Shown: piece after piece, positions 2,844 to 29,793 of the stretch
Numbering within the stretch: the stretch's first letter is position 1
Layout: the number at the start of each line of letters is the position of its first letter
From: a virus
Taxonomy: Duplodnaviria; Caudoviricetes
Direction: 5' to 3' (one strand)
DNA: 64,000 nt
IMG/VR virus record: IMGVR_UViG_3300049793_000123
Coordinates: 1,919-65,918 of that record
The notes under the pieces: generated by a model
What the model saw: only the letters and a program-made list of their open reading frames with translations
What the model was told of the DNA's origin: nothing
Databases searched by the model: none
Position numbers and translations under genes: made by a program

Positions 2844-3008
2844 TCAATCCGCACATAGTGGCGGTTTTGCTTGCTGGTGCTCCATGAACTCAATGTTTTC
2901 GCGCAGGTAGGCCACGATCCCGGCCCTGGTTTTGGGGTCGAGCTTTCGATGATGCCGAATCTCGGTTCTGATTTTGGATGGAATCGGATTGGAATAGGCT
3001 TGTTTCAT
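2844..3008 (-). CDS. small hypothetical protein
   Basis: ATG at 3008 coupled to the stop of 3005..3262. Confidence 0.45.
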   Translation of the reverse strand: MKQAYSNPIPSKIRTEIRHHRKLDPKTRAGIVAYLRENIEFMEHQQAKPPLCAD

Positions 3009-3262
3009 TGGGTTTTTGATGGTTTTCGGTCGCGCGACCCCCCGTACTGTACCCTGATTCTTTTGCTCTGCCAAGGCACTATCACCGCCCCCAGCCCGTG
3101 CCTGATCATCTTGCCCAACACTCTCTCGGTGACCCATCCCGCATACCACTCGAAGGGTGGCCTGCAAGGGATCGACTTGAATCCCAGCACCCGGGGATCG
3201 TGCAGCCTGCGCTTGTATTTGGCGTACCGCAGGAGTTTGTGCCGGTGGGATTGTCTTTTCAT
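3005..3262 (-). CDS. small basic hypothetical protein
   Basis: MKRQSHRHKLLRYAKY... Confidence 0.45.
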   Translation of the reverse strand: MKRQSHRHKLLRYAKYKRRLHDPRVLGFKSIPCRPPFEWYAGWVTERVLGKMIRHGLGAVIVPWQSKRIRVQYGGSRDRKPSKTQ

Positions 3263-3855
3263 GGTTCTTGGCCCCGGATCGACCGTCTTTCCCTGCCTGC
3301 TTTCTCCCGCACCCTTCGGGGGTGGGGAGCGCATCTTCGCAGATGCTTGGGAATCGGGGGCCGGAGACATGAGGAGTTGCCGAAAGCACCCGGAGGGAGG
3401 GGAACCGACACCGACCCCCTGCAAAGGTTTGCAAGAGGTGGGTAGTCGGTTGGAAACAAGTGGAGTTGGCCGTGAAGCCGTCGATCAGGTCCGCTTACCA
3501 TATCTCGTCCTCGCCGCGCAGGTGCGGCATCAACCGTGGTCAGTTGTAAATTGATTGGCGAATTCCAAAAGGCGAGACTCCCGGACCCCGGAGGGTCCAC
3601 TGGCGGGTACGTGCATGAATTAGTTCCATGCTCACTGGGTGGCAGCACCATTAATCCCCTCTTAGCCGAATTGCCAAGGACTGCCTTGGGTGTTTTTTAA
3701 TCCTGGAGTCGTATTACCGGCTTTCGCCTGCCTTCGTCTATGCGTTGGCCTACCCGACCAGGTTCCGCGTGTGGTGATGCGCTCGACACGTAGAAACTTA
3801 TGTGCCGCTTATTTCTCACAACCAGAAGGCGAACGCAAGTAATTCTTGAAAAATG

Positions 3856-3883
3856 TTGACCGGAGGCAGGGATATGTCATTGT
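3856..3883 (+). promoter_or_regulatory. candidate sigma70-like promoter for the RNA ligase gene
   Basis: TTGACC-N16-CATTGT, preceded by an A-rich tract; same pattern as at 9085-9113. Confidence 0.35.
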
Positions 3884-3907
3884 CGCGTTGCGTTCGACAC
3901 CTTATGT

Positions 3908-3973
3908 GCCGCCTGCTGATCGAAAACCCGACTCACCCTTGGGCATATCAATCGACAGGCGGCTTTCTTTTTT
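3908..3973 (+). terminator. leader stem-loop with U-tract (terminator/attenuator-like)
   Basis: GCCGCCTG...CAGGCGGC followed by TTTCTTTTTT, 10 nt before the ligase ATG. Confidence 0.45.
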
Positions 3974-3983
3974 ACCATCATCC

Positions 3984-5078
3984 ATGTTTAAGACGATCCA
4001 TCACATCGACGACATCCGTGGCCCGGTAGCCCATAAACCGGAGATCAAGTTTCACCGCCAGCCAAACGGGGTGACCATTGGGTGCTACAACTTCCAGGAC
4101 TCTACCACCTTCAACTGTCCCGAGGCGCTGGAGTGCCGTGGCGTCGCTTTTGACGACGACGGAAAGATTGTGTCCCGGCCGCTGCACAAGTTCTTCAACG
4201 CCGGGGAGCGCGGGGAGATCGCCGCTGTGTTCGAGAAGGTCGATGGCAGCATGATCGCCACCTGCTGGGTGAACAAGGAACTGGGATTCAGGTCCAAGAA
4301 GTCGTTCACCTCCGACGTGGTGGAGTTGACTGAGAAGTTCCTCGCCGATCCCAAGAATCGGAACCTCGTGTCGTTTTGTGAGGAGGTGGCACGCAGTGGC
4401 CACACCGCGATCTTTGAGCTTACTCACCCGTTGGCCCGCATTGTGGTCGAACAGCCGGAGCCGCAACTCCGGTTGCTGCATGTTCGGAACAATGTGACGG
4501 GTGAGTATGTCCTTTTGAACCCGAAGCATCCGCTGCACATGCTGATTCGCTGGCGGAATATTCCGCTGGTGCATCGCTTCACTGGGCTGGCGCTGCGCGA
4601 CCTGTTCGAGTCACTGGAAACGATGCAAGGCCAAGAGGGTTACGTGATCCAGTTCACCGACGGCGACATGGTGAAGGTCAAGTGCTCGTGGTATCTCGAC
4701 CTGCACAAGGCGATCACTTTCCTGCGTGAGCGCGACATCGCTACACTGGCGCTGCACGAGGAGCTGGATGACGTGAAGGCGAAGCTGCGCGAGGCGGGGA
4801 TTGATCTAGCCCAAGTTGAAGCGGTGGAGTCAAGATTGATGGGAATCCTTTCCGGCTTGGTCGATCAGGTTCACTCCACTTACGATCACGACAGCTCGCT
4901 TTCGCGAAAGGACTTCGCGATCAAGTACCAGCACCACCCGCTGCGCAGCATGCTCATGTTGCAGTTTCAGGACCGCGACATCCAGTTGGCGAAGTGGTAC
5001 GAGAAATACCAGCTCAAATCAGATTTCGGGCTGCGCATCCTCGCGGACGGCGCGCGCCGTGAAGCTGTTGAGATTTAA
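3984..5078 (+). CDS. T4 Rnl1 (RnlA)-like RNA ligase
   Basis: ECRG..F, SRPLHKFFN, motif I EKVDGS, EGYVI, KVK - the hallmark motif order of the Rnl1 family; ATG at 3984 preferred to the track's TTG start. Confidence 0.88.
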   Translation: MFKTIHHIDDIRGPVAHKPEIKFHRQPNGVTIGCYNFQDSTTFNCPEALECRGVAFDDDGKIVSRPLHKFFNAGERGEIAAVFEKVDGSMIATCWVNKELGFRSKKSFTSDVVELTEKFLADPKNRNLVSFCEEVARSGHTAIFELTHPLARIVVEQPEPQLRLLHVRNNVTGEYVLLNPKHPLHMLIRWRNIPLVHRFTGLALRDLFESLETMQGQEGYVIQFTDGDMVKVKCSWYLDLHKAITFLRERDIATLALHEELDDVKAKLREAGIDLAQVEAVESRLMGILSGLVDQVHSTYDHDSSLSRKDFAIKYQHHPLRSMLMLQFQDRDIQLAKWYEKYQLKSDFGLRILADGARREAVEI

Positions 5079-5486: not shown

Positions 5487-6048
5487 CTACTGCGGATACA
5501 CGCTTGAATTCAATGAGCGTGAGGAGTCGTGGACGATCTTCGGAGGCGAAGGCGAGTTGACCACACACAAGAATTGCGCGCTGGCCAAGGAGCGTGTGGA
5601 CAAGCCGACGACTTGCTGGCGACTTTGGACAAGATCACACTCCCGACCGAATAACCTCATGACCCCCATAACCCGCCGCTCCTTCACCTCCCGCGTGGTC
5701 GCCGCCCTGGCGGGGTTGTTTGCTGGCCTGCCTGCGATGTGGGCGCGCACGCCAAATCCGTACAGGGGTGTGCTCGACGATGAGGGGCGAGAGTGGCATG
5801 AGTTTGTGGTGCGCCGACATCAAGTAGTTGTGGCCCGTCCAAAGGCCACTGGCATCCGGCCCATGGCCCTGAGAGACTGTCATTTAAGATGCATGGTCTC
5901 CGGCGGTGGAGGGACCGGGGTTGAAGTCCTTTTCTTCGACCAGCCGGGACGTGATGGCGAGGCTATTTGGAGACCGGCATCTGGGTTGAGGATTTACCGC
6001 CTCGAACACGGGCGCGAGGTTTTGTTCTGGCCGAAGGAGGGTGTGTGA
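5452..6048 (+). CDS. hypothetical protein, possibly two fused genes (second ATG at 5659 with a Tat-like TRRSF + hydrophobic stretch)
   Basis: Composition changes at MTPITRRSFTSRVVAALAGLFAGL. Confidence 0.45.
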   Translation: MSEENKNKARFDYCGYTLEFNEREESWTIFGGEGELTTHKNCALAKERVDKPTTCWRLWTRSHSRPNNLMTPITRRSFTSRVVAALAGLFAGLPAMWARTPNPYRGVLDDEGREWHEFVVRRHQVVVARPKATGIRPMALRDCHLRCMVSGGGGTGVEVLFFDQPGRDGEAIWRPASGLRIYRLEHGREVLFWPKEGV

Positions 6049-6377
6049 GCACTGAAAATAAACCAGCCAGCGTGCCGGATAAGCCGGGATATTACTGGCT
6101 TCGCTTCTTCGGTGAAGATGTCGCCGCCAAGGTCAGTATAAGAAATGGCGTACTGAAAGCCAGCTTTGGCGATTTGTCGGCACAGGTCATCACATTCAGC
6201 AATTGGCTTGGTCCAATTCCATCACACGCCGAGTCCAATTCTTGGAAAGAGGCGCTGGAGGCTATTGCGGCGGCCTCACAGGAAAGAACCGGCGTCTATC
6301 CAGATTACGACCTGTTCGCGGATAAAATACTGAACATCGCCAAGAACGCCCTGAGCGCGAAAGGAGAGGGCAATTGA
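6045..6377 (+). CDS. hypothetical protein
   Basis: GTGA coupling; PDKPGYYW...WLGPI motif common in small phage proteins. Confidence 0.6.
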   Translation: MSTENKPASVPDKPGYYWLRFFGEDVAAKVSIRNGVLKASFGDLSAQVITFSNWLGPIPSHAESNSWKEALEAIAAASQERTGVYPDYDLFADKILNIAKNALSAKGEGN

Positions 6378-6661
6378 CCAAAGAGCGACAAGAACAGTTG
6401 GAGACGATTCAGCCGGGCATTAACGCTTACCGCGCGCTGACTGAATGCCTCGACGCCATCCGCCAGCGGGACTCCCAACTCACCGCCGCGCTCGGCCGCG
6501 AGCGGGTGCTGAAAGAGAAGGTGGAACACTGGAAAAATATGGCCATGAAATTTAGCGTGGACGAGGCCGGTCTTTGTCAAAGGTGCTTCAACTGGGATGG
6601 TGAGCACGCCGCCAATTGCGAGACGGGCCAAGCCTTGTCTGAAACGGAGGAAAAGAAGTGA
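6374..6661 (+). CDS. coiled-coil hypothetical protein with C-terminal CxxC..H..C
   Basis: GGAG RBS; start coupled to the upstream stop. Confidence 0.6.
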   Translation: MTKERQEQLETIQPGINAYRALTECLDAIRQRDSQLTAALGRERVLKEKVEHWKNMAMKFSVDEAGLCQRCFNWDGEHAANCETGQALSETEEKK

Positions 6662-6764
6662 CCTCTGAGTGCGACCTCTGCCACGACTATTTCCAAGACT
6701 CCGACCTTGAGTGGTCTGGCACGCAGTGGTTGTGCTCCAAGTGCCGGTGAGTTACCATCCCCTC

Positions 6765-7076
6765 ATGACCATCCAACAACTCCAGCCCCCCCAACTCCTC
6801 CAAGAGAATCGGAATCTCCGCCAACAGGTCGTCGGCCTGATTGCCGAGAACAACCTGCTGCGCGCCCAGGCTGTCCCGCCAGTGGCTCCGGTTCCACTGT
6901 CCATGCGGGAAGGCATACTTCGGAACGATGCCGATTCCAGCGGGCTCCTGTTGCTGGCGATCATGAAGGCGGCGAAGATGCCATCGGACGGGGGGCTCAC
7001 GGCCAAGGATTTGCCCGTGTTCGTGTCCGGGCTGGTGGTGGAATTGGAGAAGTTGCGCAAGAAGGTTAAAAAGTGA
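6765..7076 (+). CDS. coiled-coil hypothetical protein
   Basis: ATG at 6765; heptad-like N-terminus. Confidence 0.5.
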   Translation: MTIQQLQPPQLLQENRNLRQQVVGLIAENNLLRAQAVPPVAPVPLSMREGILRNDADSSGLLLLAIMKAAKMPSDGGLTAKDLPVFVSGLVVELEKLRKKVKK

Positions 7077-7497
7077 GGCGACATTTCTCATTCAGACACC
7101 GGCCAGACATCCACCGCTCGGTGCCCCATGTGTCAAACTCAATGGTAAGCCAGAACGCGCCACACTTGGGGCATTCCTGTTCCGCCTTCCGTGTCATTAG
7201 GTCTGGCTCCATGCCTTGAAGGTGTGGCAACCAAAATGAAGCAGCCTTGGTCATGGCCTCGACATCCGCGCGGAACTCGGCGAGGTATTCGGCCTTTTCC
7301 TTGGCCAGCCGGTCGTCTGGAATGAACTCGCACTTGGGGCACGCGGCCCGGCGCTCTGACATGGTGAATGTGTTGCCGGTCATGAACACGCACGGCACGA
7401 TCTCCGCGCTGCAAACACTGCCGTAGCACACATTGGCCGCGCACCGATACTGATTGGTGCTGGTGAAGTGGCGGCAGTCTTGGGTTTGGTCTCTCAC
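7066..7497 (-). CDS. Cys-rich Zn-binding hypothetical protein
   Basis: GTG coupled to the upstream stop; several CxxC pairs. Confidence 0.5.
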   Translation of the reverse strand: MRDQTQDCRHFTSTNQYRCAANVCYGSVCSAEIVPCVFMTGNTFTMSERRAACPKCEFIPDDRLAKEKAEYLAEFRADVEAMTKAASFWLPHLQGMEPDLMTRKAEQECPKCGAFWLTIEFDTWGTERWMSGRCLNEKCRLTF

Positions 7498-7814
7498 TTG
7501 CCCTCCATTTCCTTGACGTACCGAATGAACCCCTTGGCGAACTCGTAGCCCTCGCGCTGCTTGGCTTCTTTCCACGCATCGGGGTCGGACTTCAGTGTGA
7601 ACCCAATCAGCTTTCCACTCGCGTACATATGCCCCGTGTTGGTGTCCGTGTAGTTGAGTTTTGGATCGAACACCTTCCGCATGTCCATGACGTGATAGCC
7701 CAGCAGTTGGAGGCCGACTCGGGAATCCTCGGTCGCGGATTTGGCGCGCTTCCAAGATAACGCGGAAATGGCCGACGCGGCGGACATCAGGACCACCAAG
7801 ATCGCGAATCTCAC
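7494..7814 (-). CDS. hypothetical protein with N-terminal hydrophobic segment
   Basis: GTG at 7814 with GGAGG RBS; MRFAILVVLMSAASAISA. Confidence 0.55.
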   Translation of the reverse strand: MRFAILVVLMSAASAISALSWKRAKSATEDSRVGLQLLGYHVMDMRKVFDPKLNYTDTNTGHMYASGKLIGFTLKSDPDAWKEAKQREGYEFAKGFIRYVKEMEGK

Positions 7815-8116
7815 TTGGCCACCCTCCAAAACCCCGTCTTCACGTCGAGTATGAGGGTGAGCTTGCGCCCCCACTTGGTGGCCTGCGCGTAGTCGTTGAT
7901 CTGGCCGAGGGTGAGGTCGCAGTCGGCACCGGACTCCAGCTTGGAAATGTGGCCTTGGGTTACGCCCAGAGTCTTGGCGAGTTCCAACTGCTTGTTTCCG
8001 TTCGCAATCCGCATGCACGCCAGCGACGTGCAGACGCGGCTATTGGGCTTCAACCGGTGGAGATCACGCTCGGCAGGGTCGATGATGCGCGCCTTGAGTG
8101 TTGGGGTGGTTTTCAA
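7811..8116 (-). CDS. XRE-family helix-turn-helix regulator
   Basis: KQLELAKTLGVTQGHISKLESG. Confidence 0.8.
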   Translation of the reverse strand: MKTTPTLKARIIDPAERDLHRLKPNSRVCTSLACMRIANGNKQLELAKTLGVTQGHISKLESGADCDLTLGQINDYAQATKWGRKLTLILDVKTGFWRVAK

Positions 8117-8695: not shown

Positions 8696-9034
8696 TTAAA
8701 CGTTCTCCACTTCCAACCCCAAGGCGTGGGCATTGCGAGCCACGAACAAACCCAACGCCGCGTGCGCATCTCGATGCTCCATTTCCGCGTATCCTTTGGG
8801 CTGGCCGTCCAGCCAGAAGTCCACATGAAAGCCTTGAACGCGCGGAGTGAAACGAATCTTGATATGCTGGCGAGTCGCGGACAGCAGCTCGTTGCGCTCT
8901 CGGACGGCCAGCAGGAGACCGCCCACCTGATCGGAAGGGTTGATCTCGCCTGCCTCCCATTGGCGCAGCGTGGCACCAATTTGGGCGGATGGGGTGGGGT
9001 GGGTTTCGGAGGGTGCTACAATTGCTGGTTTCAT
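8696..9034 (-). CDS. hypothetical protein divergent from the XRE gene
   Basis: ATG at 9034. Confidence 0.5.
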   Translation of the reverse strand: MKPAIVAPSETHPTPSAQIGATLRQWEAGEINPSDQVGGLLLAVRERNELLSATRQHIKIRFTPRVQGFHVDFWLDGQPKGYAEMEHRDAHAALGLFVARNAHALGLEVENV

Positions 9035-9084
9035 ATTTTTGAAACGTAATCGCGCGGGGAATGTGTGGCAAGTGAAATTCGTGG

Positions 9085-9113
9085 TTGACAGTTCTTTTAA
9101 CAAAACCCATTGT
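9085..9113 (+). promoter_or_regulatory. candidate sigma70-like promoter (possibly leaderless transcript of the XRE gene)
   Basis: TTGACA-N17-CATTGT ending 7 nt before GTG 9121. Confidence 0.45.
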
Positions 9114-9120
9114 CGGCCAA

Positions 9121-9336
9121 GTGAAGCAGCAATTCCAATTGCAAATCGACATCGGGAACCGGATTGCGACCAAGCGCGGGAAGATCGGCCTGTCGTTTTT
9201 GAATCTGGCCAAGAAGGCTGGCGTATCCAAGGGCACGCTGTCCTGCGTCGAGCGCGGTTTGAGAGCGCCGAACATTCTGACGCTGATCCGCATTGCCAAC
9301 GCGCTGGGGACGACGGTGCAGCGGTTGATTTCGTAA
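9121..9336 (+). CDS. XRE-family (Cro/CI-like) HTH regulator
   Basis: IGNRIATKRGKIGLSFLNLAKKAGVSKGTLSCVERG..PNILTLIRIANALG. Confidence 0.85.
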   Translation: MKQQFQLQIDIGNRIATKRGKIGLSFLNLAKKAGVSKGTLSCVERGLRAPNILTLIRIANALGTTVQRLIS

Positions 9337-9346
9337 TACAAAAATC

Positions 9347-9973
9347 ATGAGCTTGAATCCTTGCAAGTGTGGGTCGGAAAACATCTGTCCACACGCCGGA
9401 CAAAGCTGGCCAGCTGTGTGGCACGCAGTTCAATGCATGTCCTGCGGAAAGACAACTTTGCAACTTCCAAGTGAAGTGGATGCGCAGATATCGTGGAACA
9501 AGGAGAACCCCGCCCCAGAACCCAACTCAACCTGCTGCCAGCGCGGCTGCTCCGACGCGCCCAAGGCCACGCCGTCCACGCCGGTTTGGAATGTGCATCT
9601 GAAGGATGGTCGGGTTGCGAAGGTGGTGGCTCATCACTGCTCATCCGATTCTCACAGCGTGATATTTCTCAATAACCTTGAGGAAGACGTGGCGGAATTC
9701 TGGCCCAAAGACATCGACTTCATCGCGCGCGACGGGGCGGTGGAGATTGTGCCTGCGGACCCAAAATCCGCCCCAGACGTTCAGCCTGGCGGCGGAGAAT
9801 GCTTCGAGAATTTCTGTGCTCGTAACAAGGTTCAGCCTGACATGACGTTCGCGTACCACGCGTGGATCGCGGAGAGGAAGAAGTCCGCCCCGAATCAGGA
9901 TACACTGCCAACGGTTGAGGATGTGCAGAAGATTTACCAAGAAGAAAAGACAGTACCACCTCGACGAACATGA
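9347..9973 (+). CDS. Lar-like Zn-finger domain protein, multi-module
   Basis: N-terminal PCKCG...VQCMSCG...SWN resembles the Lar/ParA restriction-alleviation Zn finger. Confidence 0.55.
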   Translation: MSLNPCKCGSENICPHAGQSWPAVWHAVQCMSCGKTTLQLPSEVDAQISWNKENPAPEPNSTCCQRGCSDAPKATPSTPVWNVHLKDGRVAKVVAHHCSSDSHSVIFLNNLEEDVAEFWPKDIDFIARDGAVEIVPADPKSAPDVQPGGGECFENFCARNKVQPDMTFAYHAWIAERKKSAPNQDTLPTVEDVQKIYQEEKTVPPRRT

Positions 9974-10248
9974 AGGTCTTTATCACCAAGCACGCCTTGA
10001 CAGCCGGTATCGAGGAAGCCGAGGTTGAGGTATCTCCGAGGTCGCCTGATGTGGTGTCATGTGGCGAGGGTTATGACAAGCGATATTACCACAAGCCGGA
10101 TTGGCATAAGGATCGGGATTCGGCGATCAGCCATGCCGAGCAAATTCGCGCATCCAGAGTGGCAGACTTGCTTGGTGAGGTAGCGCGGTTGAAGGCGCTC
10201 AGGTTTTGGCCGGAGCATTGGCGGTTGAAACCCGTCAAACAGTTATGA
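9970..10248 (+). CDS. hypothetical phage protein
   Basis: MKVFITKHALTAGI...; ATGA coupling. Confidence 0.65.
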   Translation: MKVFITKHALTAGIEEAEVEVSPRSPDVVSCGEGYDKRYYHKPDWHKDRDSAISHAEQIRASRVADLLGEVARLKALRFWPEHWRLKPVKQL

Positions 10249-10955
10249 ACATTCGAGAATCCAGAGAAAGAAAAATCGTGTGGTGCGGGTTGGTGGCGCT
10301 GAGCGTGTTATTTTCCGCTTGGGGCTGGATGACCAGAGGGTCTTCCGCCGAGTTTACCAATTGGAATGAATTCGTTGCCTCCATCAAGCCGGATAAGAAT
10401 GGCCATCGCTGGGTGAACCGAGGTCCGACAACGATTGGATTTATCACCACCAACAAAGATGATGCCAGGCCGACCGCCAGCGAGACAATTTTTCTTTCCA
10501 CGAATAAGGCCACTGGAATCACCACCAACACAACCGATGTTGGCACTTGGCAAATTTTCAGCATCGACCTGCTCTCGAACACCAATCGCGTCAATTTCGG
10601 TTTGAATTGGATCAAAGAGGTGTGCTGGGAATTGGAGGGCGTTACGATCACCCGTCCAGTCTGGCTGGTCGAAACCAATTGGGTGACTGTGGCGCATGTG
10701 CAACCTGAGAAGATCACGAGGTTGGATGATCCGATGGCCAACAGGGCAACCGCCGAACTCATGACCGCCAACGCCATTCAAGTGATCCAGCGCGGTGACG
10801 TGTCCTCCAACCTTGTGGCGTGGGTTTACGGCCACGGCGTGACCAATACTGTGCGATTCAAGAGCATCCCGATTCCTGAGTGGTCGAATGAGGAGCGGAG
10901 ATTGTTGGAATATCACCAGAGCCCGTTCATCACACCGGGGTTAATTGGATGGTGA
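10245..10955 (+). CDS. membrane-anchored Thr/Asn-rich protein
   Basis: N-terminal TM segment; many TN dipeptides; VETNW motif shared with 47658..48182. Confidence 0.65.
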   Translation: MNIRESRERKIVWCGLVALSVLFSAWGWMTRGSSAEFTNWNEFVASIKPDKNGHRWVNRGPTTIGFITTNKDDARPTASETIFLSTNKATGITTNTTDVGTWQIFSIDLLSNTNRVNFGLNWIKEVCWELEGVTITRPVWLVETNWVTVAHVQPEKITRLDDPMANRATAELMTANAIQVIQRGDVSSNLVAWVYGHGVTNTVRFKSIPIPEWSNEERRLLEYHQSPFITPGLIGW

Positions 10956-10993
10956 ATCAACTTGCCAAAACGTATTCTGTGTGGTTGGTTTCT

Positions 10994-11069
10994 GACGCAC
11001 CGGCGTAGTGGTGTAGATGCACACGGACTATGACAGTCCGAAGGTGGGGTGTGACTCCCTGATGCGCCT
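10994..11069 (+). tRNA. degenerate tRNA-like element (nominal anticodon TGA)
   Basis: D stem GCGT/ATGC, anticodon stem CGGAC/GTCCG with loop TATGACA, T arm TGGGG-TGTGACT-CCCTG, acceptor stem with 2 mismatches. Confidence 0.4.
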
Positions 11070-11150
11070 TCAGTTTTTGACTGCGAATGCCCATGCGGAC
11101 TACATTTTAACGTTCGTCTGCACAACTTTTGTCGCGGTTATTTTGATTTT

Positions 11151-11236
11151 GGATTCAGCGGTTCACTCCGCAAGATGGCCAGCACTGGCAAGACTACCGC
11201 TAGCACGGTCCCCGGTGGCAACCATTGAGTCCGCCA
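11151..11236 (+). ncRNA. structured RNA ending in GCCA
   Basis: GGATTCAGCGGTT pairs with AACCATTGAGTCC, then GCCA; no canonical D/T arms. Confidence 0.35.
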
Positions 11237-11302
11237 ATAGCGCCTGTGACCTGATTGGCGAAGACGAGCATGGTCCACCCGATCATAAGCAGGCCATTTT
11301 AC

Positions 11303-11408
11303 GCTCGGGTAGCAGACATTGATAAATGCGGCATGGGCGACGGCTCATGTGCTCTGCGGAATCAAGCGCTTGGTTCCAATGATGCCGGTTCAATTCCGGC
11401 CCCTTGCA
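11303..11408 (+). tRNA. tRNA-like RNA with the anticodon arm replaced by a tetraloop hairpin, plus a long variable arm
   Basis: TAGCAGACATTGATAAATGC D arm; GCATGGGC-GACG-GCTCATGT hairpin; GGAATCAAG/CTTGGTTCC arm; GCCGG-TTCAATT-CCGGC T arm. Confidence 0.5.
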
Positions 11409-11414
11409 GAATTT

Positions 11415-11558
11415 GCACCCACGAACAACCCGGTAGGCAAGTAACTCGAACCGTCGTGAGATGATTCTGAATCCGGGACCGGTCACGGTGAAGCTGGACA
11501 GCCCGCGTGCGCGTGGCGCTACCGGCTGAGTGATCGGGAAACAAACTGGCTTGGGTGC
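11415..11558 (+). ncRNA. multi-stem structured RNA
   Basis: GCACCCA/TGGGTGC closing stem, CCGGTAG/CTACCGG inner stem, GAACCGTC-GTGA-GATGATTC GNRA hairpin. Confidence 0.4.
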
Positions 11559-11567
11559 GATCTTTAC

Positions 11568-11662
11568 GGATGAAGTAGCTCAGTCCGGGAGAGCAGGAGC
11601 CGCGAGCCACTTGATTGTGGCTCAACGCCCCAGGTCGCCGGTTCAAATCCGGCCTTCATCCA
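11568..11662 (+). tRNA. tRNA-His-like RNA with an expanded anticodon arm
   Basis: 8-bp acceptor GGATGAAG/CTTCATCC (G-1:C73-like), canonical D and T arms, TTGA-TTGTGGC-TCAA loop with GTG inside a ~19-nt-longer arm. Confidence 0.6.
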
Positions 11663-11668
11663 TGCTTT

Positions 11669-11745
11669 GGGCTCGAATCTGAAGTGCCGAGGAACCCGAC
11701 TGTCGCTCGGGTCGTTAGCGAGTGCGAGTCTCGTCGAGCCCGCCA
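11669..11745 (+). tRNA. tRNA-Asp(GTC)
   Basis: Acceptor GGGCTCG/CGAGCCC, G73 and encoded CCA, anticodon arm CCCGA-CTGTCGC-TCGGG, T arm GCGAG-TGCGAGT-CTCGT; D arm weak. Confidence 0.75.
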
Positions 11746-11780
11746 CGTTCCATCGGGGATCACTGCGCGGTTTAGTGTTT

Positions 11781-11878
11781 GGAACGACCGTGGTGAAACT
11801 AGCAGACACGCCGCAGATGCAAGTCCGGTGACGGGTGAAATCCCCGTTATGCTGGTGCAAGTCCAGCCGGATGTTCCA
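11781..11878 (+). tRNA. class II (Leu-like) tRNA-like RNA with a disrupted anticodon arm
   Basis: D arm GTGAAACTAGCAGACAC, variable arm GACGGG/CCCGTT, T arm GCTGG-TGCAAGT-CCAGC, acceptor stem extended to GGAAC/GTTCC. Confidence 0.5.
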
Positions 11879-11927
11879 AATGCAAGGCCCGGTGTGTGGC
11901 TCCATGCCGACGCCGGGCCGTCTCTTT

Positions 11928-12113
11928 ATGAAGCAAGAACTTAAACCAATCGACTGGCGCGCTGCTGAGGAGGCGTTACGCCGGGTCGCCTGCGGTCTTC
12001 CATCGACCAACAAAGAAAAACCCGCCAGCGAGGCGGGTGAGAAGCGTGGCCGGGTGTTCCGGCCCTGGTTCAAAAAGAGTGGTGAGATTATTGTGGTTGG
12101 GGATCAGCAGTGA
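11928..12113 (+). CDS. small hypothetical protein
   Basis: MKQELKPIDW... follows a GC-rich hairpin. Confidence 0.35.
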   Translation: MKQELKPIDWRAAEEALRRVACGLPSTNKEKPASEAGEKRGRVFRPWFKKSGEIIVVGDQQ

Positions 12114-12303
12114 GGCAGTCGGGGTGTAACGTGTGGGCGCAGGAGTTGCAGCGTTTCTTGGGAATCTCGTTCCCAGAACTGCTGTAGTCCTCGTCGATCA
12201 AATTGCCACCCGTTCCGAAGCGGCGGCATCGCTGAACCGGTTCAAGCTCGAACCAGCCGTTGGTGGAGTGGCACTGTACGCAGGGGGTGGTCTGTTTTGT
12301 CAT
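12088..12303 (-). CDS. small Zn-ribbon protein
   Basis: CVQC...CNSC; ATGA coupling. Confidence 0.55.
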   Translation of the reverse strand: MTKQTTPCVQCHSTNGWFELEPVQRCRRFGTGGNLIDEDYSSSGNEIPKKRCNSCAHTLHPDCLTADPQPQ

Positions 12304-12749
12304 GGCTTCTTGGGTTTGAGTGAATCTTCCACGAGGTTCTGAAAACGGATGCAGCGATCACGCTCGCGCTGGCTCAGGTGGGTTAGGCTGTAGGTAAGGT
12401 GGATTTTGCTGAACATCTTGGATGGGCGAGACCAGAGGCCATAAGTCTCGGATGGGGTTGGCCATCGACCCATGACCTTGCGGAATGAGTCGGCGCGCTC
12501 GTTGATGATTTGAGATGCCACCAGCCATGCCGATTGCGAGTTGCTGGCTCTGGCTCGGATCGCCTTGCTGTGCGTGCATCCAGTCACTTCAGTCCACACT
12601 CGTGGTAAAATCTGAAAGCGAGAGACTTCCCGCGCTCGGCCTACCTTGGTATCGACGCCACCGCTTTCCACTTGGCCCAGCGCGATTCGGATCGCGTTCT
12701 GTTCGATTGGTGAAAGGCTCAACAAGTAGCAGAGGATTGCAGTCTTCAT
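12300..12749 (-). CDS. lysozyme-fold lytic transglycosylase (SLT/destabilase-like)
   Basis: ALGQVESGG (catalytic Glu), GRAREVSRFQI, W..P near the C-terminus; hydrophobic N-terminus. Confidence 0.7.
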   Translation of the reverse strand: MKTAILCYLLSLSPIEQNAIRIALGQVESGGVDTKVGRAREVSRFQILPRVWTEVTGCTHSKAIRARASNSQSAWLVASQIINERADSFRKVMGRWPTPSETYGLWSRPSKMFSKIHLTYSLTHLSQRERDRCIRFQNLVEDSLKPKKP

Positions 12750-12967
12750 GGTTTCTTTTTGGAGAGTCGGCTGTTGAGGATTTCGACGGCCTTCTGTGCG
12801 TCAGGATCGTTGATTGATCTCAGGCCGATGACGCAGGATTTCATGTAATCTTCTTCGAGCTTGGCATGAGGCTTCGCCAAAATCTGCTGCGCGATGGCGA
12901 TCCATGGCCGTTGGTCATTTTCGATGTGTGAAAACTGGATCGCCTTGATTTCTTCGTGCTTACTCAT
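12746..12967 (-). CDS. hypothetical protein
   Basis: Coupled ORF. Confidence 0.6.
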   Translation of the reverse strand: MSKHEEIKAIQFSHIENDQRPWIAIAQQILAKPHAKLEEDYMKSCVIGLRSINDPDAQKAVEILNSRLSKKKP

Positions 12968-13314
12968 GAATCCTGACCGCCACCGATCTCGTGAAGCACG
13001 CTGTTCAGGGCTGCGGTGTAAGATAGTAAATCGACCAAAGTGTCTTCTTTGTATCCGCCCTTCATCCGGCCAAGTTTCACGTCACACAAGCAAGCGGCTT
13101 GGATAGCCCGCTGGCAGACCACCTCAGGAGCTTGGGACTTTTTGATGTGCTCCACCGTCATCTCGTAAAACGGAGCCTGAAACTGTTGCAAGTCCCAGCC
13201 GTCCTTTTGATCGGCTGCGTATTGGGTGGCGCGGTCCTGTAAAATCGCATCGCACTTCGCCAGTGTGGCCAAGGCGAGGGATTGGAATGCGCGTTTGGGT
13301 TTGGGGTCGTTCAT
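12964..13314 (-). CDS. DUF6378-like (all-helical nucleotide-diphosphohydrolase-related) protein
   Basis: ILQDRATQY...VKLGR...EDTLVDLLSY. Confidence 0.6.
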   Translation of the reverse strand: MNDPKPKRAFQSLALATLAKCDAILQDRATQYAADQKDGWDLQQFQAPFYEMTVEHIKKSQAPEVVCQRAIQAACLCDVKLGRMKGGYKEDTLVDLLSYTAALNSVLHEIGGGQDS

Positions 13315-13718
13315 TGGTTGATGATGGTTAGGAATTCTGAGATGGAGCGGACGACGTGATAGCGGCCTTCAAATCCTCTCGCGTCAAGATAACATTTGAA
13401 CGCGAGCTGTTCCGGCCTTAGCTTGGAGTTGGCGCGCTTGGCCTCAATACACCACCAGCGCCCTTGGTCTCCGAAGATGATAAAGTCGGGTTCGCCAATG
13501 GTTCTTCCGGTGGCCTTATCCATTCGTCCGTGACAAGCCATCCAACCACGTCGGCGGCACTCGGCCAGGATTTGGTCGTGCAAAATCGCCTCCCTGTCAA
13601 CTGGTGGATTCGATAGGTGCGTTGGCCTAGCTAAAACTTCTTGTTGAAGCTTCCACAGCTTATCCGTTCTTCCGTTAGCAATACGCGCGTTATGAGCGTC
13701 TGCCTCAGCTTGGGTCAT
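13311..13718 (-). CDS. VRR-NUC domain nuclease
   Basis: E..L...I, GEPDFII, CIEAK, LRPEQ, VVRS. Confidence 0.85.
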   Translation of the reverse strand: MTQAEADAHNARIANGRTDKLWKLQQEVLARPTHLSNPPVDREAILHDQILAECRRRGWMACHGRMDKATGRTIGEPDFIIFGDQGRWWCIEAKRANSKLRPEQLAFKCYLDARGFEGRYHVVRSISEFLTIINQ

Positions 13719-13862
13719 CCTTTGCATAACTTGCCTTTGAAGCATCTCCTTCCTCCGCATCATTATCCACCTCGTCGCGCACAACAAGTGATCCGTCATC
13801 TTGATCGTGAACGCCCGCATCGTGATAGTCCGGCATCTCCCGGCTACTCCAGCGCATTGGCA

Positions 13863-14117
13863 TCACAACAACCTCGCCTGTTCGGGATTTTCCAGCTCCA
13901 CCTCCGCGCGCGGCTCGTAGGTAAGCGGGCAGCCGTGTTCATCATGGGACGGGATGGACATTTCGCACACCAGCTTACGCCCTCCGGGTTTTCCTTCCAG
14001 CTTGAACTCCAGGCTGGCCTTCTTGCGCTTTGACGCCTCCACCTTGGCACCGTGCTCGGTAAACAGCTTGGTGACCAGGAAAGCCGCCTTGGTGGTCAGT
14101 TCATTCTGATCGCTCAT
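13863..14117 (-). CDS. hypothetical protein
   Basis: GAGG/AGG RBS, ATG start. Confidence 0.55.
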   Translation of the reverse strand: MSDQNELTTKAAFLVTKLFTEHGAKVEASKRKKASLEFKLEGKPGGRKLVCEMSIPSHDEHGCPLTYEPRAEVELENPEQARLL

Positions 14118-14580
14118 GCTTCCTCTCCCTCTTGGTTTTGGGTTCCACGTATTGGATGCGCGACCTGAACGCGAGGGCCAGCTTGATCTTGCCGCTCATC
14201 AGCCCACTTACAAGCACAGCCACCACTCCGCCGTGGCCGTGAATTATCTCCGACACGTATCCGCGTTTCCATTTGGACCACTCATCAGTCTGCACTTCGG
14301 TTCCATCCTTCCTGAACGTTCCAGACTCGGCCATAAGTTTGGCCCATCTCACCTGAACCCCGACAATTATCCTTGGGTCGATCACAGGGCACTGAATTGG
14401 ATCAAAGAAGTTCTCAAACTTGGCGAGCTTGCGCACCCCGGAAAGTCGGCATGCTCCAAGGATTCCGCCACCGTCGTTGGGGAACACCTCGGCGACAGTG
14501 TGTGCCTTGAAGGCTGCTGATGGACATGATCTCCACAGCACGCGCTGGCCGACGGTCCAGTAACCGATGAGATATTTCAC
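14101..14580 (-). CDS. hypothetical protein (two SH3/KOW-like repeats?)
   Basis: GTGA coupling; 'VGQRVLW' and 'VGVQVRW' repeats. Confidence 0.5.
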   Translation of the reverse strand: MKYLIGYWTVGQRVLWRSCPSAAFKAHTVAEVFPNDGGGILGACRLSGVRKLAKFENFFDPIQCPVIDPRIIVGVQVRWAKLMAESGTFRKDGTEVQTDEWSKWKRGYVSEIIHGHGGVVAVLVSGLMSGKIKLALAFRSRIQYVEPKTKRERKHERSE

Positions 14581-14783
14581 ACTTCCCCCTGTCTTCGCGG
14601 AAGCTTGATCTTTTGGCGGCGACACAGGCTTCGGACATAATAGCTGGCAACCGCCAGAGAATGCATCCTGCCAGCCCAGTAAGGATTTGACTTCAACTTG
14701 TGCTGATCCTTTGCCTCGGCATGAAGTCTCTGAAAATGTTTCAGTGTTAACAGCGCGAACTTTTGGTTGGTCATGTTTTTCAA
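14577..14783 (-). CDS. small hypothetical protein
   Basis: Coupled to the dnaB stop. Confidence 0.5.
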   Translation of the reverse strand: MKNMTNQKFALLTLKHFQRLHAEAKDQHKLKSNPYWAGRMHSLAVASYYVRSLCRRQKIKLPRRQGEV

Positions 14784-16219
14784 TCCTTCTGATGCGACGG
14801 ATAATCCGCCTGTTCAACTTTCGACGCCGACTCAAACCGCGTCTGCTCGGCGAAGAACGTCAGCATGTCCTTGCCGAGATTGCCCTCCCGGTTCTTGGCT
14901 GTCTTAGCACACACCAAGCGGGACGATTCAGCAGCACGATCCTTGGTGAACAGCAGCACGATCTTGTCGGCGTCCTCTTCGATGTCACCGGACTCTCTCA
15001 GGTTTATCAGGGTCGGCTCCGTATCCTCGTCCTTGGCAGCCTCACGACCAAGCTGGGAAGCCAGCATCACCACAATCCCGAGTTCCAACGCCATCTCGTG
15101 GCAGGCCCAAGAAACCGCGCTCACCTCATTCCGACGATCCCGTGCCGATGGATGACGCACACGCTGGGCATGATCTACCATGGCGATCTTGATCCCGTAA
15201 CGCTTAACCATTTCCCGCATGGTGGAACGCATCATCGAAGTGGTGAACCCGCTGCGCTCGTCAATCCAAATAGGCAGCCGCTTCACCTTTCCGAGGCAGT
15301 TCGTGATGCGGAAAAAGTCTACGTCGTTCCAATTGGTGATCCCGCGCGCGGACATGTTCACCTTGGCCCGGGTTGCGATCACGCGCGAGGTCAGGCTTTT
15401 GCCGGGCATCTCGGTGGACACGATTCCAGTCCCAATCCCGGAGTCAGCCAAGTTGTTGGCGATGTTCATCATGAGCGCCGTTTTGCCAGTGCCAGTGCGA
15501 GCGCCAAGGATCACCAACTCGCCCGGCTTCATGCCGCCCAGCGTACGGTCTAGGTCGGGAAACCCGGTTCTCAGCCCGATGATGCCGTCACCGCCCAGCT
15601 TGTGGACTTCCTCGGCCGCATCCACCACGGGCTGGACGAAGTTGCCGATGGGCTGGACCGATCCCTTGGATTCGATCAGCTTGCTTAATCCAAGCGCGCT
15701 CTCTTGCAGAGAATCTATCAACTCGATGACTGTTCCGGTCAAGCCGGTGTATGCTCGGCCGATCAATTCGCTGGCCTCGTGGATGAATTTTCGGCGCACG
15801 AAGCAATCACGAACAGACTGGGCATAGGTTGGCAAGTTGGCGGCACTGGGCACCCCGTCTATCAGGGAGTTTAAGTAGGCCAGCCCCCCAACTGCCTCCA
15901 ATTGGTCTAATCGTTTCAACGCCGTGGGAAAGGTAATCATGTCAACGGGCACCCTCATCTCCCGCATTCCAAGGATGACCTCGAAGATGGCTCGGTGTCG
16001 CAAGTCGTAGAAGGCTTCGATGGTTCAGAGTTGTTCGAGTAGCAGGTCGGCATTCGTCTCAGGATCAAGTAGGACGCATCCGAGGCACCCTTGCTCGGCC
16101 TCCACGTCATGCGGTGGCAGCCGGTCGAGACGCGCCATGTCCGGGGCCATGCGCGAGGTCTTACGTGGATTAGACGCATTGCGGGCCTCCAAGTCTGCTT
16201 GATCGTCGAGTGAGGACAT
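14780..16219 (-). CDS. dnaB: DnaB-like replicative helicase with an in-frame TGA at 16025-16027
   Basis: N-terminal PPHDVEAEQGCLG and FYDLRHRAIF lie in the same frame on either side of TGA; Walker A GARTGTGKT, STEM, MVDH, SQLGR, LRESGDIEEDAD, KNREG. Confidence 0.9.
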
Positions 16220-29673: not shown

Positions 29674-29793
29674 GGCGTGTGATGGTTCGCGGAGCATACC
29701 TAAGTATCCTTATAGGGATACTCATGATTGCCCTTGCGGAACAGTGGCACACCTGTATTCTGTATGCAACCACCTTCGTTGGTGGAGCCTTTT

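What the first reader, a model, noticed from the sequence alone, without database searches (positions are those of the whole stretch)
11568..11662. tRNA-His-like RNA carrying its own anti-anticodon
Seen: an 8-bp acceptor stem (G-1:C73, the His identity element) and a His-type loop TTGA-TTGTGGC-TCAA with GTG at 11617-11619. Immediately 5' is a tandem insert GAGCCGC-GAGCCAC; GAGCCAC (11604-11610) is the exact complement of GTGGCTC (11617-11623). The RNA therefore has two mutually exclusive folds, one hiding and one exposing the anticodon. Inference: a conformational switch, a nuclease-protected HisRS substrate or decoy, or a precursor needing cleavage and ligation.
Basis: partly seen in the sequence, partly recalled or inferred. 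Interest (0 to 1): 0.72.

Follow-up and report, generated by a model that had tools for sequence, protein, structure and literature searches.

The report
Phage histidine tRNA with locked anticodon
A soil phage carries a gene that is plainly derived from a histidine tRNA but has its anticodon buried in an extra hairpin built from a duplicated piece of the tRNA itself, so it almost certainly cannot read codons; it lies among three other odd tRNA-like genes, and whether they are working tRNA mimics or wrecks cannot yet be decided.

Summary
11568-11662 is a perfect tRNA body (Rfam tRNA 47.1 bits) with the histidine marks G-1:C73. It holds an anticodon arm, CTTGA-TTGTGGC-TCAA, whose 15-nt core is the tRNA-His arm in 18 of 23 bacterial loci fetched with it. 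Against those tRNAs it has 14 extra bases before the arm and 5 after it. The 14-base insert looks like a slipped duplication of the D-stem 3' strand and supplies GAGCCAC, the exact complement of GTGGCTC.

It is not a two-state switch. The masked fold is 17 kcal/mol better than the exposed one, and GUG is paired with probability about 1. It is not a clean intron either: 0 of 94 single deletions restores a canonical arm.

The gene is the second of four tRNA-derived elements in one 760-nt gap. The others are e0 with no anticodon loop, e2 Asp-like, and e3 Cys-like with an 8-nt loop. e2 and e3 carry TGC for TTC in the T loop.

No relative could be fetched and no RNA data exist. My best reading is a non-decoding tRNA mimic like the T5 tRNA-like stable RNAs (0.42), against an inert relic (0.36).

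Earlier agents of this scan noted hairpin inserts in phage tRNAs on other DNA; that model does not fit here.

The parts
11568..11662 (+). e1: tRNA-His-derived gene, 95 nt, no CCA encoded (C73 is followed by ATG)
   Evidence: Rfam RF00005 47.1 bits against a cut-off of 29; ARAGORN; 28 of 29 pairs in its five helices
11568..11575 (+). Acceptor 5' strand including G-1; pairs with 11654-11661, where C73 = 11661
   Evidence: 8 of 8 Watson-Crick pairs; register fixed by U8 and A9 in the Rfam alignment
11578..11594 (+). D arm GCTC/GAGC with a canonical D loop (A14, G18, G19, A21)
11596..11609 (+). 14-nt 5' insert GGAGCCGCGAGCCA, absent from natural tRNA-His, lying between positions 26 and 27. It holds two more copies of the D-stem strand GAGC and is flanked by the direct repeat GAGCA (11591-95) / GAGCCA (11604-09)
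   Evidence: comparison with 18 natural tRNA-His genes and alignment of 14 of them
11604..11610 (+). Anti-anticodon GAGCCAC; pairs 7 of 7 with 11617-11623
11610..11626 (+). Native His anticodon arm C-TTGA-TTGTGGC-TCAA-C (GTG 11617-19). C27.C43 is a mismatch because G43 of the natural genes is C here
   Evidence: the 15-nt core is the arm of an ARAGORN tRNA-His(gtg) in 18 of 23 genome loci
11627..11631 (+). 5-nt 3' insert GCCCC; pairs 4 of 5 with GGAGC (11596-600) to form the stalk under the hairpin
11637..11653 (+). T arm GCCGG-TTCAAAT-CCGGC (canonical TTC)
11331..11408 (+). e0: tRNA-like element. Acceptor 6 of 7; T arm 17 of 18 identical to that of e1; an 8-bp hairpin with a GCGC tetraloop where the anticodon arm should be; A73; no CCA
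   Evidence: my T-arm and acceptor scan; Rfam tRNA-Sec 17.3 bits, E 1.6, below cut-off; ARAGORN -ps80; blastn self-match E 0.005
11669..11745 (+). e2: Asp-type tRNA-like gene. Acceptor 7 of 7; arm CCCGA-CTGTCGC-TCGGG (GTC); G73 and CCA encoded; T loop TGCGAGT; D loop without GG
   Evidence: found only by ARAGORN's mitochondrial mode; no Rfam tRNA match even at E 10; resembles the annotated tRNA-Asp of Rhizobium phage RHph_I1_18
11784..11878 (+). e3: 95-nt tRNA-like gene with a long extra arm, the 8-nt loop GATGCAAG (GCA), T73 and CCA encoded, T loop TGCAAGT
   Evidence: Rfam tRNA-Sec 13.7 bits, E 1.9, below cut-off
11077..11106 (+). Promoter-like site that could drive the four elements (inference only)
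   Evidence: consensus scan, 9 of 12
11886..11919 (+). GC-rich hairpin followed by a T-rich stretch; possible end of the + strand unit (inference)
   Evidence: inverted repeat I5; sequence
12020..12038 (-). Intrinsic terminator of the converging minus-strand genes. It shows that 11323-12019 is non-coding and that ORF 11564-12073 is spurious
   Evidence: the ORF has no relative and is not itself in the protein collection

Best explanation
e1 is a histidine tRNA gene turned into a non-decoding tRNA mimic.

A slipped duplication of the D-stem 3' strand (GAGC plus positions 26 and 27) put 14 bases in front of the intact His anticodon arm, and 5 bases were added behind it. In the transcript the new strand GAGCCAC zips onto GUGGCUC, that is, the anticodon, positions 37-38 and the first two bases of the 3' stem. 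GGAGC pairs with GCCCC beneath it. The result is a normal acceptor, D and T body carrying a closed arm about 15 layers long: 5 pairs, a 3x3 internal loop, 7 pairs and the hexaloop UUGAUU.

Shown: the anatomy, the descent from tRNA-His, the strong bias to the masked fold, and the lack of an intron-type solution.

Inferred:
- It is transcribed with three other tRNA-derived genes at the end of the early rightward genes.
- RNase P leaves G-1, as in natural tRNA-His.
- The host adds CCA.
- HisRS can still charge it through G-1:C73.
- It cannot reach a codon.

I take it to be kept as a stable tRNA-shaped RNA of the kind phage T5 makes (RNA1, RNA2). Its likeliest job is to engage tRNA-binding host factors, such as tRNA-directed defence nucleases or HisRS, without entering translation. 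That last step is the weakest.
For: 1. Descent from tRNA-His.
- G-1:C73 is present; the identity rule comes from PMC9976931 Table 1.
- The 15-nt arm core is the arm of a called tRNA-His in 18 of 23 genome loci. 16 of those 18 have C27 and G43, and 5 of 18 have the same AGGTC variable loop.

2. The body is flawless.
- 47.1 bits despite a 25-nt insertion.
- 28 of 29 pairs.
- U8, A14, G18, G19, A21, the G15-C48 pair and the TTC T loop are all present.
- Meanwhile the anticodon arm took at least three changes.

3. The anticodon is locked.
- Masked fold -43.0 kcal/mol against -26.2 for the His arm on the stalk and -24.8 without the stalk.
- GUG is paired with p 0.999-1.0, and a second copy masks if the first is blocked.

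4. Company.
- My scan for a T arm next to a pairing acceptor finds hits only in 11331-11874 across 128 kb of both strands: 5 rows, 4 elements. 20 shuffles average 1.1 hits.
- e0, whose T arm is 17 of 18 identical to that of e1, also has a closed 8-bp hairpin in the anticodon position.
- e2 and e3 both carry TGC for TTC in the T loop and lack the GG of the D loop. Staphylococcal tRNA-Gly species that stay out of translation have the same substitution (PMC7826273, passages).
- In e1, e2 and e3 the discriminator matches the anticodon type: C73 with GUG, G73 with GUC, U73 with GCA. One search supports His and Cys; the Asp rule is recalled.

5. Precedent. The T5 record annotates 'tRNA-like stable RNA with unknown functions' inside its tRNA cluster. 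RNA1 and RNA2 fold with a tRNA-type acceptor and T arm and a long arm where the anticodon arm should be.

6. A 760-nt non-coding tract is kept in a compact phage genome.
Against: - No relative of the element was found anywhere, so there is no conservation or covariation evidence.
- The 14-nt insert is flanked by direct repeats, the mark of an accident, not a design.
- e0 shows plain decay: a T.T mismatch in the acceptor, a weak D stem, and G-1 facing A73.
- The fold energies of e0, e2 and e3 are not better than shuffles: z -1.52, -0.88 and -0.46. Their helices were picked by eye or by a relaxed ARAGORN, so the pair counts are biased upward.
- My scan required a T arm and an acceptor, so 'all four keep them' is partly ascertainment.
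- None of the 65 ORFs scanned against Pfam matched an aminoacyl-tRNA transferase family or any other family that binds tRNA, apart from the Rnl1-type RNA ligase.
- There is no sequence similarity to the T5 RNAs (searches returned no T5 record).
- If the host belongs to the alphaproteobacterial group whose HisRS ignores G-1:C73 (recalled), e1 would not be charged. The ligase's best named relatives are Bradyrhizobium.
Confidence: 0.42

Rival explanations
1. Inert relic. The phage's ancestor had a small tRNA operon (His, Asp, Cys and another) that is no longer needed. Replication slippage, or template switching at the natural quasi-palindrome of tRNA-His, wrecked the anticodon arm of e1 recently. 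The neighbours are older wrecks. The RNA may be made, but nothing selects for it.
For: - Direct repeats GAGCA/GAGCCA flank the 14-nt insert, and GAGC occurs three times in tandem.
- Natural tRNA-His already reads GAGC-N-C before the arm, 6 of the 7 bases of the anti-anticodon. One added C makes the palindrome perfect.
- L049 from a metagenome shows GAGCCAC arising from the D-stem strand plus positions 26-28 next to a His loop.
- e0 has lost its anticodon loop and its acceptor is imperfect.
- e2 and e3 fail the Rfam tRNA model altogether.
- The fold z-scores of e0, e2 and e3 are unremarkable.
- No second instance of the masked architecture: 0 of 16 pattern hits in IMG/VR and JGI metagenomes has an Rfam tRNA match.
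Against: - The e1 body has no defect at all, although the arm took at least three separate changes.
- e2 and e3 share the same rare U55-to-G and position-59 G states with different stems.
- The stems of e2 and e3 pair well (20 of 21 and 25 of 27), while the invariant tertiary bases are the ones that changed.
- A phage would be expected to shed 760 nt of junk.
Confidence: 0.36
2. Precursor. The extra pieces are cut out and the ends rejoined, for instance by a double-strand RNA nuclease and the phage Rnl1-type ligase (3846-5078), giving a working tRNA-His. This would resemble the hairpin mini-introns suggested for other phage tRNAs.
For: - The phage encodes a T4 Rnl1-family ligase (PF09511 7.9e-23, PHROG 562 1.3e-69).
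- 'Enigmatic' introns are reported in Lak phage tRNAs (PMC6784885, passages).
- Removing the 14 nt alone would leave a His arm next to position 26 with a 10-nt variable region.
Against: - 0 of 94 single deletions of 17-22 nt gives at least 4 of 5 pairs with U33 and a purine at 37.
- Two separate excisions are needed for a standard tRNA.
- The internal loop is 3x3, not bulge-helix-bulge.
- No ribozyme or intron family matches.
- The cut sites would lie in direct repeats.
- No end-healing kinase/phosphatase was seen among the 65 ORFs scanned against Pfam or the 51 scanned against PHROGs. The contig is only 76% complete.
- The ligase is 6.5 kb away across the immunity region, and its nearest relatives are bacterial chromosomal genes at 53-59% identity.
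Confidence: 0.07
3. Switchable or directly decoding tRNA-His. A protein, a modification or ribosome binding opens the hairpin, the two inserts loop out at the hinge like a variable arm, and the RNA reads CAC and CAU.
For: - The His arm sequence is fully intact.
- The third GAGC copy could instead pair with the D-stem strand GCTC and free the anticodon (sequence; MAFFT chose that register).
- Long variable arms are tolerated at the same hinge in class II tRNAs (general knowledge).
Against: - A 17 kcal/mol penalty, and a second masking copy upstream.
- The 5' arm of the hairpin is transcribed first, so folding during transcription also favours masking (inference).
- No tRNA with an insert between positions 26 and 27 is known to me (recalled; no literature search was made on this point).
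- No opener is encoded nearby.
Confidence: 0.05

Closest known systems
tRNA-like stable RNAs of phage T5 (RNA1, RNA2, RNA3; GenBank AY543070, annotated 'tRNA-like stable RNA with unknown functions')
   Same: They lie inside a phage tRNA gene cluster, some directly beside tRNA-His, tRNA-Asp, tRNA-Asn and tRNA-Cys. RNA1 and RNA2 fold with a tRNA-type acceptor stem and T arm and a long arm where the anticodon arm should be. Their function is unknown.
   Different: There is no sequence similarity (searches returned no T5 record). The T5 RNAs are 125-144 nt with branched arms, whereas e1 is 95 nt and still holds a complete His anticodon arm that is merely masked. The T5 RNAs are recorded as stable RNAs; expression of e1 is untested.
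Ordinary bacterial tRNA-His (18 genes in loci L002-L022; Planctomycetota, Omnitrophota, Acidobacteriota, Cloacimonadota, Chloroflexota and others)
   Same: G-1:C73, the GCTC/GAGC D stem, an identical 15-nt anticodon arm core, C27, and in 5 of 18 the same AGGTC variable loop.
   Different: e1 has 14 nt between positions 26 and 27 and 5 nt between 43 and 44, C for G at 43, and no CCA. Its anticodon is predicted to be paired.
Non-proteogenic tRNA-Gly of staphylococci (PMC7826273, passages read)
   Same: These are tRNAs kept out of translation but still charged. Their genes have TGC or TGT for TTC in the T loop and lack G19, as do e2 and e3 here.
   Different: e1 itself keeps TTC. The staphylococcal tRNAs have normal anticodon arms and known partner enzymes (FmhB, FemA, FemB). 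None of the 65 ORFs scanned against Pfam matched a Fem-type or other aminoacyl-tRNA transferase family.
'Enigmatic' introns in Lak megaphage tRNAs (PMC6784885, passages) and hairpin mini-introns noted earlier in this scan
   Same: A phage tRNA gene that is longer than normal because of a hairpin-forming insert in the anticodon region. A phage RNA ligase is present.
   Different: Those inserts sit inside the anticodon loop and can be removed as one piece to restore a tRNA. Here the loop is intact, the extra bases flank the arm in two pieces, and no single excision works.
Phage tRNAs with altered anticodon loops that escape host anticodon nucleases (PMC10264068; search listing and start of abstract only)
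   Same: A phage-encoded tRNA whose anticodon region is changed in a way that would block nucleases that need an open loop.
   Different: Those tRNAs still decode. e1 cannot in its predicted fold.

Membership tests
Canonical decoding tRNA-His (bacterial) | Cloverleaf above the Rfam tRNA gathering score | tested here: met
   47.1 bits against 29
Canonical decoding tRNA-His (bacterial) | G-1 paired with C73 | tested here: met
   G11568:C11661; rule from PMC9976931 Table 1
Canonical decoding tRNA-His (bacterial) | GUG in an open 7-nt loop on a 5-bp stem joined directly to positions 26 and 44 | tested here: not met
   The loop sequence is present, but it is separated from the body by 14 and 5 nt and is paired with p about 1
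Canonical decoding tRNA-His (bacterial) | Charged by HisRS and used on the ribosome | not testable with these tools
   No RNA run is listed; it needs bench work
Intron-bearing tRNA (group I, bulge-helix-bulge, or phage hairpin mini-intron) | One contiguous insert whose removal restores a canonical anticodon arm | tested here: not met
   0 of 94 deletions of 17-22 nt gives at least 4 of 5 pairs with U33 and a purine at 37. ARAGORN's intron mode gives an Asn(att) arm with G33
Intron-bearing tRNA (group I, bulge-helix-bulge, or phage hairpin mini-intron) | Ribozyme core or bulge-helix-bulge motif | tested here: not met
   No Rfam intron or ribozyme match. The fold shows a symmetric 3x3 internal loop
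T5-type phage tRNA-like stable RNA | Located in a phage tRNA cluster, with a tRNA-type acceptor and T arm and an enlarged arm in place of the anticodon arm | tested here: met
T5-type phage tRNA-like stable RNA | Sequence relatedness to the T5 RNAs | tested here: not met
   blastn of e1 and of e2-e3 against 50,697 phage records returned no T5-group record
T5-type phage tRNA-like stable RNA | Accumulates as a stable RNA; conserved among related phages | not testable with these tools
   No RNA holder. The single relative (P0122) lies on a contig that I could not fetch
Non-proteogenic tRNA (staphylococcal type) | TGC or TGT in place of TTC in the T loop | tested here: not met
   e1 has TTCAAAT. 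e2 (TGCGAGT) and e3 (TGCAAGT) do meet it (PMC7826273)
Non-proteogenic tRNA (staphylococcal type) | A partner aminoacyl-tRNA transferase | tested here: inconclusive
   None of the 65 ORFs scanned matched such a Pfam family. Many ORFs have no family, the contig is 76% complete, and a host enzyme could serve

The most novel reading that the evidence does not exclude
The 760-nt gap encodes an operon of four purpose-built tRNA mimics. Each keeps the end that enzymes recognise, namely the acceptor, the T arm and an identity set of the His, Asp or Cys type. Each has its decoding function disabled in a different way: a hairpin closing the anticodon arm (e0, e1), an 8-nt loop (e3), or a TGC elbow like the staphylococcal non-proteogenic tRNAs (e2, e3). 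The phage would use them either as decoys that soak up tRNA-directed defence nucleases or toxins, or as charged amino-acid donors that stay off the ribosome. That would give a first functional handle on the long-unexplained tRNA-like stable RNAs of phages such as T5.
Probability: 0.2. Interest if true: 0.75.

Novelty: new variant of a known kind. Interest (0 to 1): 0.4.

Why it matters
Phage tRNA clusters have long been known to hold tRNA-like RNAs of unknown function; the T5 record lists eight stable RNAs, three of them called tRNA-like. Here the origin of one such element can be read base by base. It is a normal tRNA-His whose own D-stem strand was duplicated and now locks the anticodon.

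If the element is kept by selection, it is a simple, testable model of how a phage turns a tRNA into a non-decoding mimic. It would bear on how phages deal with tRNA-targeting immunity. If it is a wreck, it is a clear example of quasi-palindrome or slippage mutation killing a tRNA gene, and a warning for annotation, since ARAGORN calls it tRNA-Arg.

Tried and rejected
Searches for relatives, all empty or uninformative:
- Exact 20-mer of the hairpin in IMG/VR.
- Acceptor and D-arm pattern in IMG/VR.
- T-loop and acceptor 22-mer in JGI metagenomes.
- e3 T-arm 20-mer and an e2/tRNA-Asp pattern in IMG/VR.
- Protein-anchored loci for the ligase, the helicase and P0122 in IMG/VR.
- megablast of 9000-15000, and blastn of e1 and of e2-e3, against 50,697 phage records. 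These gave only T-arm pieces and one 31-nt match to a Rhizobium phage tRNA-Asp.
- The terminase matches only haloarchaeal viruses, at 27-28%.

Test for recurrence of the architecture: the pattern GAGCCAC, 0-10 nt, TTGTGGCTC, 8-30 nt, GGTTC gave 5 IMG/VR and 11 metagenome loci. 0 of these 16 has an Rfam match. Relaxed ARAGORN calls there were not convincing.

Other attempts:
- I tried to recover the relative's sequence through a spurious ORF across the tRNA region (169 aa). It has no relative and is not itself in the collection.
- No RNA holder is listed for the stretch; one DNA run of soil, possibly the source.
- A mismatch-tolerant search for the e2 arm in five bacterial genomes gave only noise, equal to the reversed-pattern control.
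- DNA search of the cluster in those genomes found only T-arm pieces.

Considered and dropped:
- ARAGORN's Arg(gcg) and Asn(att) readings.
- tRNA-Sec or a suppressor (no U33 in any UCA register).
- A kissing pair between the e0 and e1 loops. The 7-nt complementarity follows from the 3' arm of e0 resembling the 5' stem of the e1 arm.
- Local duplicated fragments D4, D5 and D8 (E above 1).
- GOLLD, ROOL or other large RNAs (no Rfam match).

Full report
SETTING

The window is 64 kb of a 65,918-nt IMG/VR virus record rated 76% complete. One soil DNA run holds it. A Logan contig of that run, 11,930 nt long, covers 10500-12500 without a difference. The odd tRNA is therefore not an assembler artefact, although the run may be the source sample.

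The genes are those of a tailed phage:
- large terminase, tail collar and fibre proteins;
- RecT, a PDDEXK exonuclease, a DnaB-type helicase, a C5 methylase, MazG;
- nicotinamide phosphoribosyltransferase next to a PRPP-synthetase-like gene;
- two HTH repressor-like genes facing each other;
- a T4 Rnl1-family RNA ligase at 3846-5078.

ARAGORN and Rfam each find one tRNA in the window, at 11568-11662.

THE OBSERVATION

All the stated bases are there.
- The acceptor has 8 of 8 pairs. The Rfam alignment puts position 1 at 11569, with U8 and A9 in register. G11568 is therefore G-1, pairing with C73 (11661).
- The D arm, the T arm and the AGGTC variable loop are canonical.
- The model's 7-nt anticodon loop is replaced by 26 nt.
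- The minimum-energy fold is -43 kcal/mol (z -3.77). It has GGAGC/GCCCC (4 of 5 pairs), a 3x3 internal loop, the 7-bp hairpin GAGCCAC/GUGGCUC and the hexaloop UUGAUU.
- In shuffles of the 42 nt between the D and T stems, a perfect hairpin of 7 or more pairs turns up in 649 of 20000. A His-type stem-loop turns up in 57 of 200000.

WHAT IT DERIVES FROM

I scanned one genome per prokaryotic species for the 15-nt arm core followed by a T loop. This gave 23 loci. ARAGORN calls tRNA-His(gtg) across the match in 18 of them.

Those genes read GAGC, position 26, C, TTGA-TTGTGGC-TCAA, G, variable loop, T arm, with G-1 and C73. 16 of the 18 have C27 and G43, and 5 of the 18 have AGGTC.

Laid beside them (14 of the 18 were aligned), e1 is the same molecule with three changes:
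- GGAGCCGCGAGCCA added between positions 26 and 27;
- GCCCC added after the arm;
- C in place of G43.

The anticodon loop itself is untouched, so ARAGORN's Arg(gcg) and Asn(att)-with-intron readings are wrong.

The 14-nt insert holds two more copies of the D-stem strand GAGC and is bounded by the direct repeat GAGCA/GAGCCA. MAFFT even aligns its 3' part to the natural D arm.

Natural tRNA-His already reads GAGC-N-C just before the arm. That is six of the seven bases complementary to GUGGCUC, because the D-stem strand GCUC recurs at positions 37-40. The 'anti-anticodon' is thus a duplicated D-stem strand with one more C. Slippage or template switching at a quasi-palindrome would produce this; that mechanism is recalled, and I read no paper on it.

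NOT A SWITCH, NOT A CLEAN INTRON

- Energies: masked fold -43.0 kcal/mol; His arm on the stalk -26.2; His arm without the stalk -24.8.
- 11617-11623 are paired with p 0.99-1.0.
- With 11604-11610 blocked, the upstream copy masks instead, at -37.9.
- The 5' arm of the hairpin is transcribed first, so folding kinetics should agree (inference).
- Of 94 single deletions of 17-22 nt, none gives at least 4 of 5 stem pairs together with U33 and a purine at 37.
- There is no T in 11595-11610 that could serve as U33.
- The internal loop is not a bulge-helix-bulge, and no ribozyme family matches.
- In either fold the arm is at least 5 pairs too long to place an anticodon on the ribosome (inference from tRNA geometry).

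THE NEIGHBOURHOOD

The + strand genes end at 11322. The converging minus-strand genes end at an intrinsic terminator at 12038-12020. The 169-aa ORF over the tRNA has no relative and is not itself in the protein collection. So 11323-12019 is non-coding.

I scanned both strands of the window for a 5-bp stem with a T-loop-like 7-nt loop followed by a 7-mer that pairs 40-84 nt upstream. Hits occur only at four places, all on the + strand between 11331 and 11874. 20 shuffles average 1.1 hits.

- e0 (11331-11408) shares 17 of 18 T-arm bases with e1. It has an 8-bp hairpin with a tetraloop where the anticodon arm belongs, a T.T mismatch in the acceptor, and A73.
- e2 (11669-11745) starts 7 nt after e1. 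It has a 7 of 7 acceptor, a 5 of 5 arm with loop CTGTCGC (GUC), G73 and CCA, but a weak D arm without GG and the T loop TGCGAGT. Only ARAGORN's mitochondrial mode calls it, and Rfam gives nothing at E 10. It resembles the annotated tRNA-Asp of Rhizobium phage RHph_I1_18, including an identical T stem.
- e3 (11784-11878) has an acceptor with one A.A mismatch, the 8-nt loop GATGCAAG (GCA), a 7-bp extra arm, the T loop TGCAAGT, T73 and CCA.

Pair counts are 22 of 24, 28 of 29, 20 of 21 and 25 of 27 for e0 to e3.

Discriminator and anticodon agree for His, Asp and Cys. One search supports His and Cys; the Asp rule is recalled.

Against reading much into this: the fold energies of e0, e2 and e3 are no better than shuffles. 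Their helices were also chosen by eye or with relaxed settings.

KNOWN PARALLELS

- The TGC-for-TTC change shared by e2 and e3 is the change reported for the staphylococcal tRNA-Gly species that bind EF-Tu and ribosomes poorly and feed cell-wall synthesis (PMC7826273, passages). None of the 65 ORFs scanned against Pfam matched a transferase family of that kind.
- The T5 GenBank record annotates RNA1 and RNA2 ('tRNA-like stable RNA with unknown functions') and RNA3 inside its tRNA cluster. RNA1 and RNA2 fold with a tRNA-type acceptor and T arm and a long arm in the anticodon position.
- Lak phage tRNAs carry unexplained introns (PMC6784885, passages). Earlier agents of this scan proposed cut-and-rejoin hairpin mini-introns in other phages. 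I tested that model here and it does not fit.
- HisRS charges helices that carry only G-1:C73 (PMC9976931), so e1 could be charged without its anticodon.

RELATIVES

None could be fetched. The helicase has one close relative, P0122, 87% identical, on a Logan contig. All others are 32-39% identical. The listed ligase relatives are 53-59% identical; the few that carry an organism name are mostly Bradyrhizobium.

Nine pattern scans (on the public collections; on five bacterial genomes) and three protein-anchored scans found no second copy. The masked-His pattern found 16 loci, none of them a tRNA. There is thus no conservation or covariation evidence for or against function.

VERDICT

- Shown: a real tRNA-His-derived gene, the origin of its anti-anticodon, a locked anticodon, and its place in a cluster of four aberrant tRNA-like genes.
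- Not shown: expression, processing, charging, or any role.

I put 0.42 on a retained non-decoding tRNA mimic of the T5 kind, 0.36 on an inert relic, 0.07 on a spliced precursor and 0.05 on a switch or decoder.

Interest is moderate. The anatomy is unusually legible and touches an old open question, but it is a singleton without comparative or expression support.

Noticed in passing
window 11331-11408, 11669-11745, 11784-11878: Three more tRNA-derived elements flank the reported one. Standard ARAGORN and Rfam thresholds miss all three. e2 (Asp-type) and e3 (Cys-type, 8-nt loop, long extra arm) both have TGC instead of TTC in the T loop and encode CCA. e0 has a closed hairpin in place of the anticodon arm.
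   Followed up: partly
window 11409-11567: The 159-nt spacer between e0 and e1 folds better than shuffles (-60.2 kcal/mol, z -2.52), with a 9-bp closing stem. It has no Rfam match and may be another structured RNA or tRNA remnant.
   Followed up: no
window 23147-25389 (-): A nicotinamide phosphoribosyltransferase gene next to a PRPP-synthetase-like gene. The pair recalls NAD-restoring counter-defence modules of phages; that link is recalled and was not checked.
   Followed up: no
window 3846-5078 (+): A T4 Rnl1-family RNA ligase whose listed relatives are 53-59% identical; the few that carry an organism name are mostly Bradyrhizobium, the rest are unnamed metagenome proteins. No end-healing kinase/phosphatase was seen. 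About 1.7 kb upstream (2150-3845) has only unconvincing ORFs.
   Followed up: partly
window 49772-58279 (+): A single 2,835-aa ORF with no Pfam or PHROG match, lying among virion genes.
   Followed up: no
window 28138-29697 (-): The large terminase finds only haloarchaeal tailed viruses among 50,697 phage records, at 27-28% identity. The rest of the gene set looks bacterial (DnaB, RecT, a heptosyltransferase-like gene). The lineage has no cultured relative.
   Followed up: no
window 7811-8116 (-) and 9085-9336 (+): Two divergent HTH_3 genes look like a repressor/Cro pair. No integrase was seen in the window.
   Followed up: no
L061 (phage T5, AY543070) 3207-3645 and 5960-7622: In T5 the annotated tRNA-like or stable RNAs sit directly beside tRNA-His (RNAIII, RNAI, RNA1) and near tRNA-Asp, tRNA-Asn and tRNA-Cys (RNA2, RNA3). 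The aberrant elements here mimic three of those four amino-acid types (His, Asp, Cys). This may be coincidence.
   Followed up: no
L049 and L058 (metagenome contigs): Partial tRNA-His 3' portions without a matching 5' acceptor strand. In L049 the D-stem strand plus positions 26-28 already spells the exact complement of the anticodon region. These are probably integration-site remnants.
   Followed up: no
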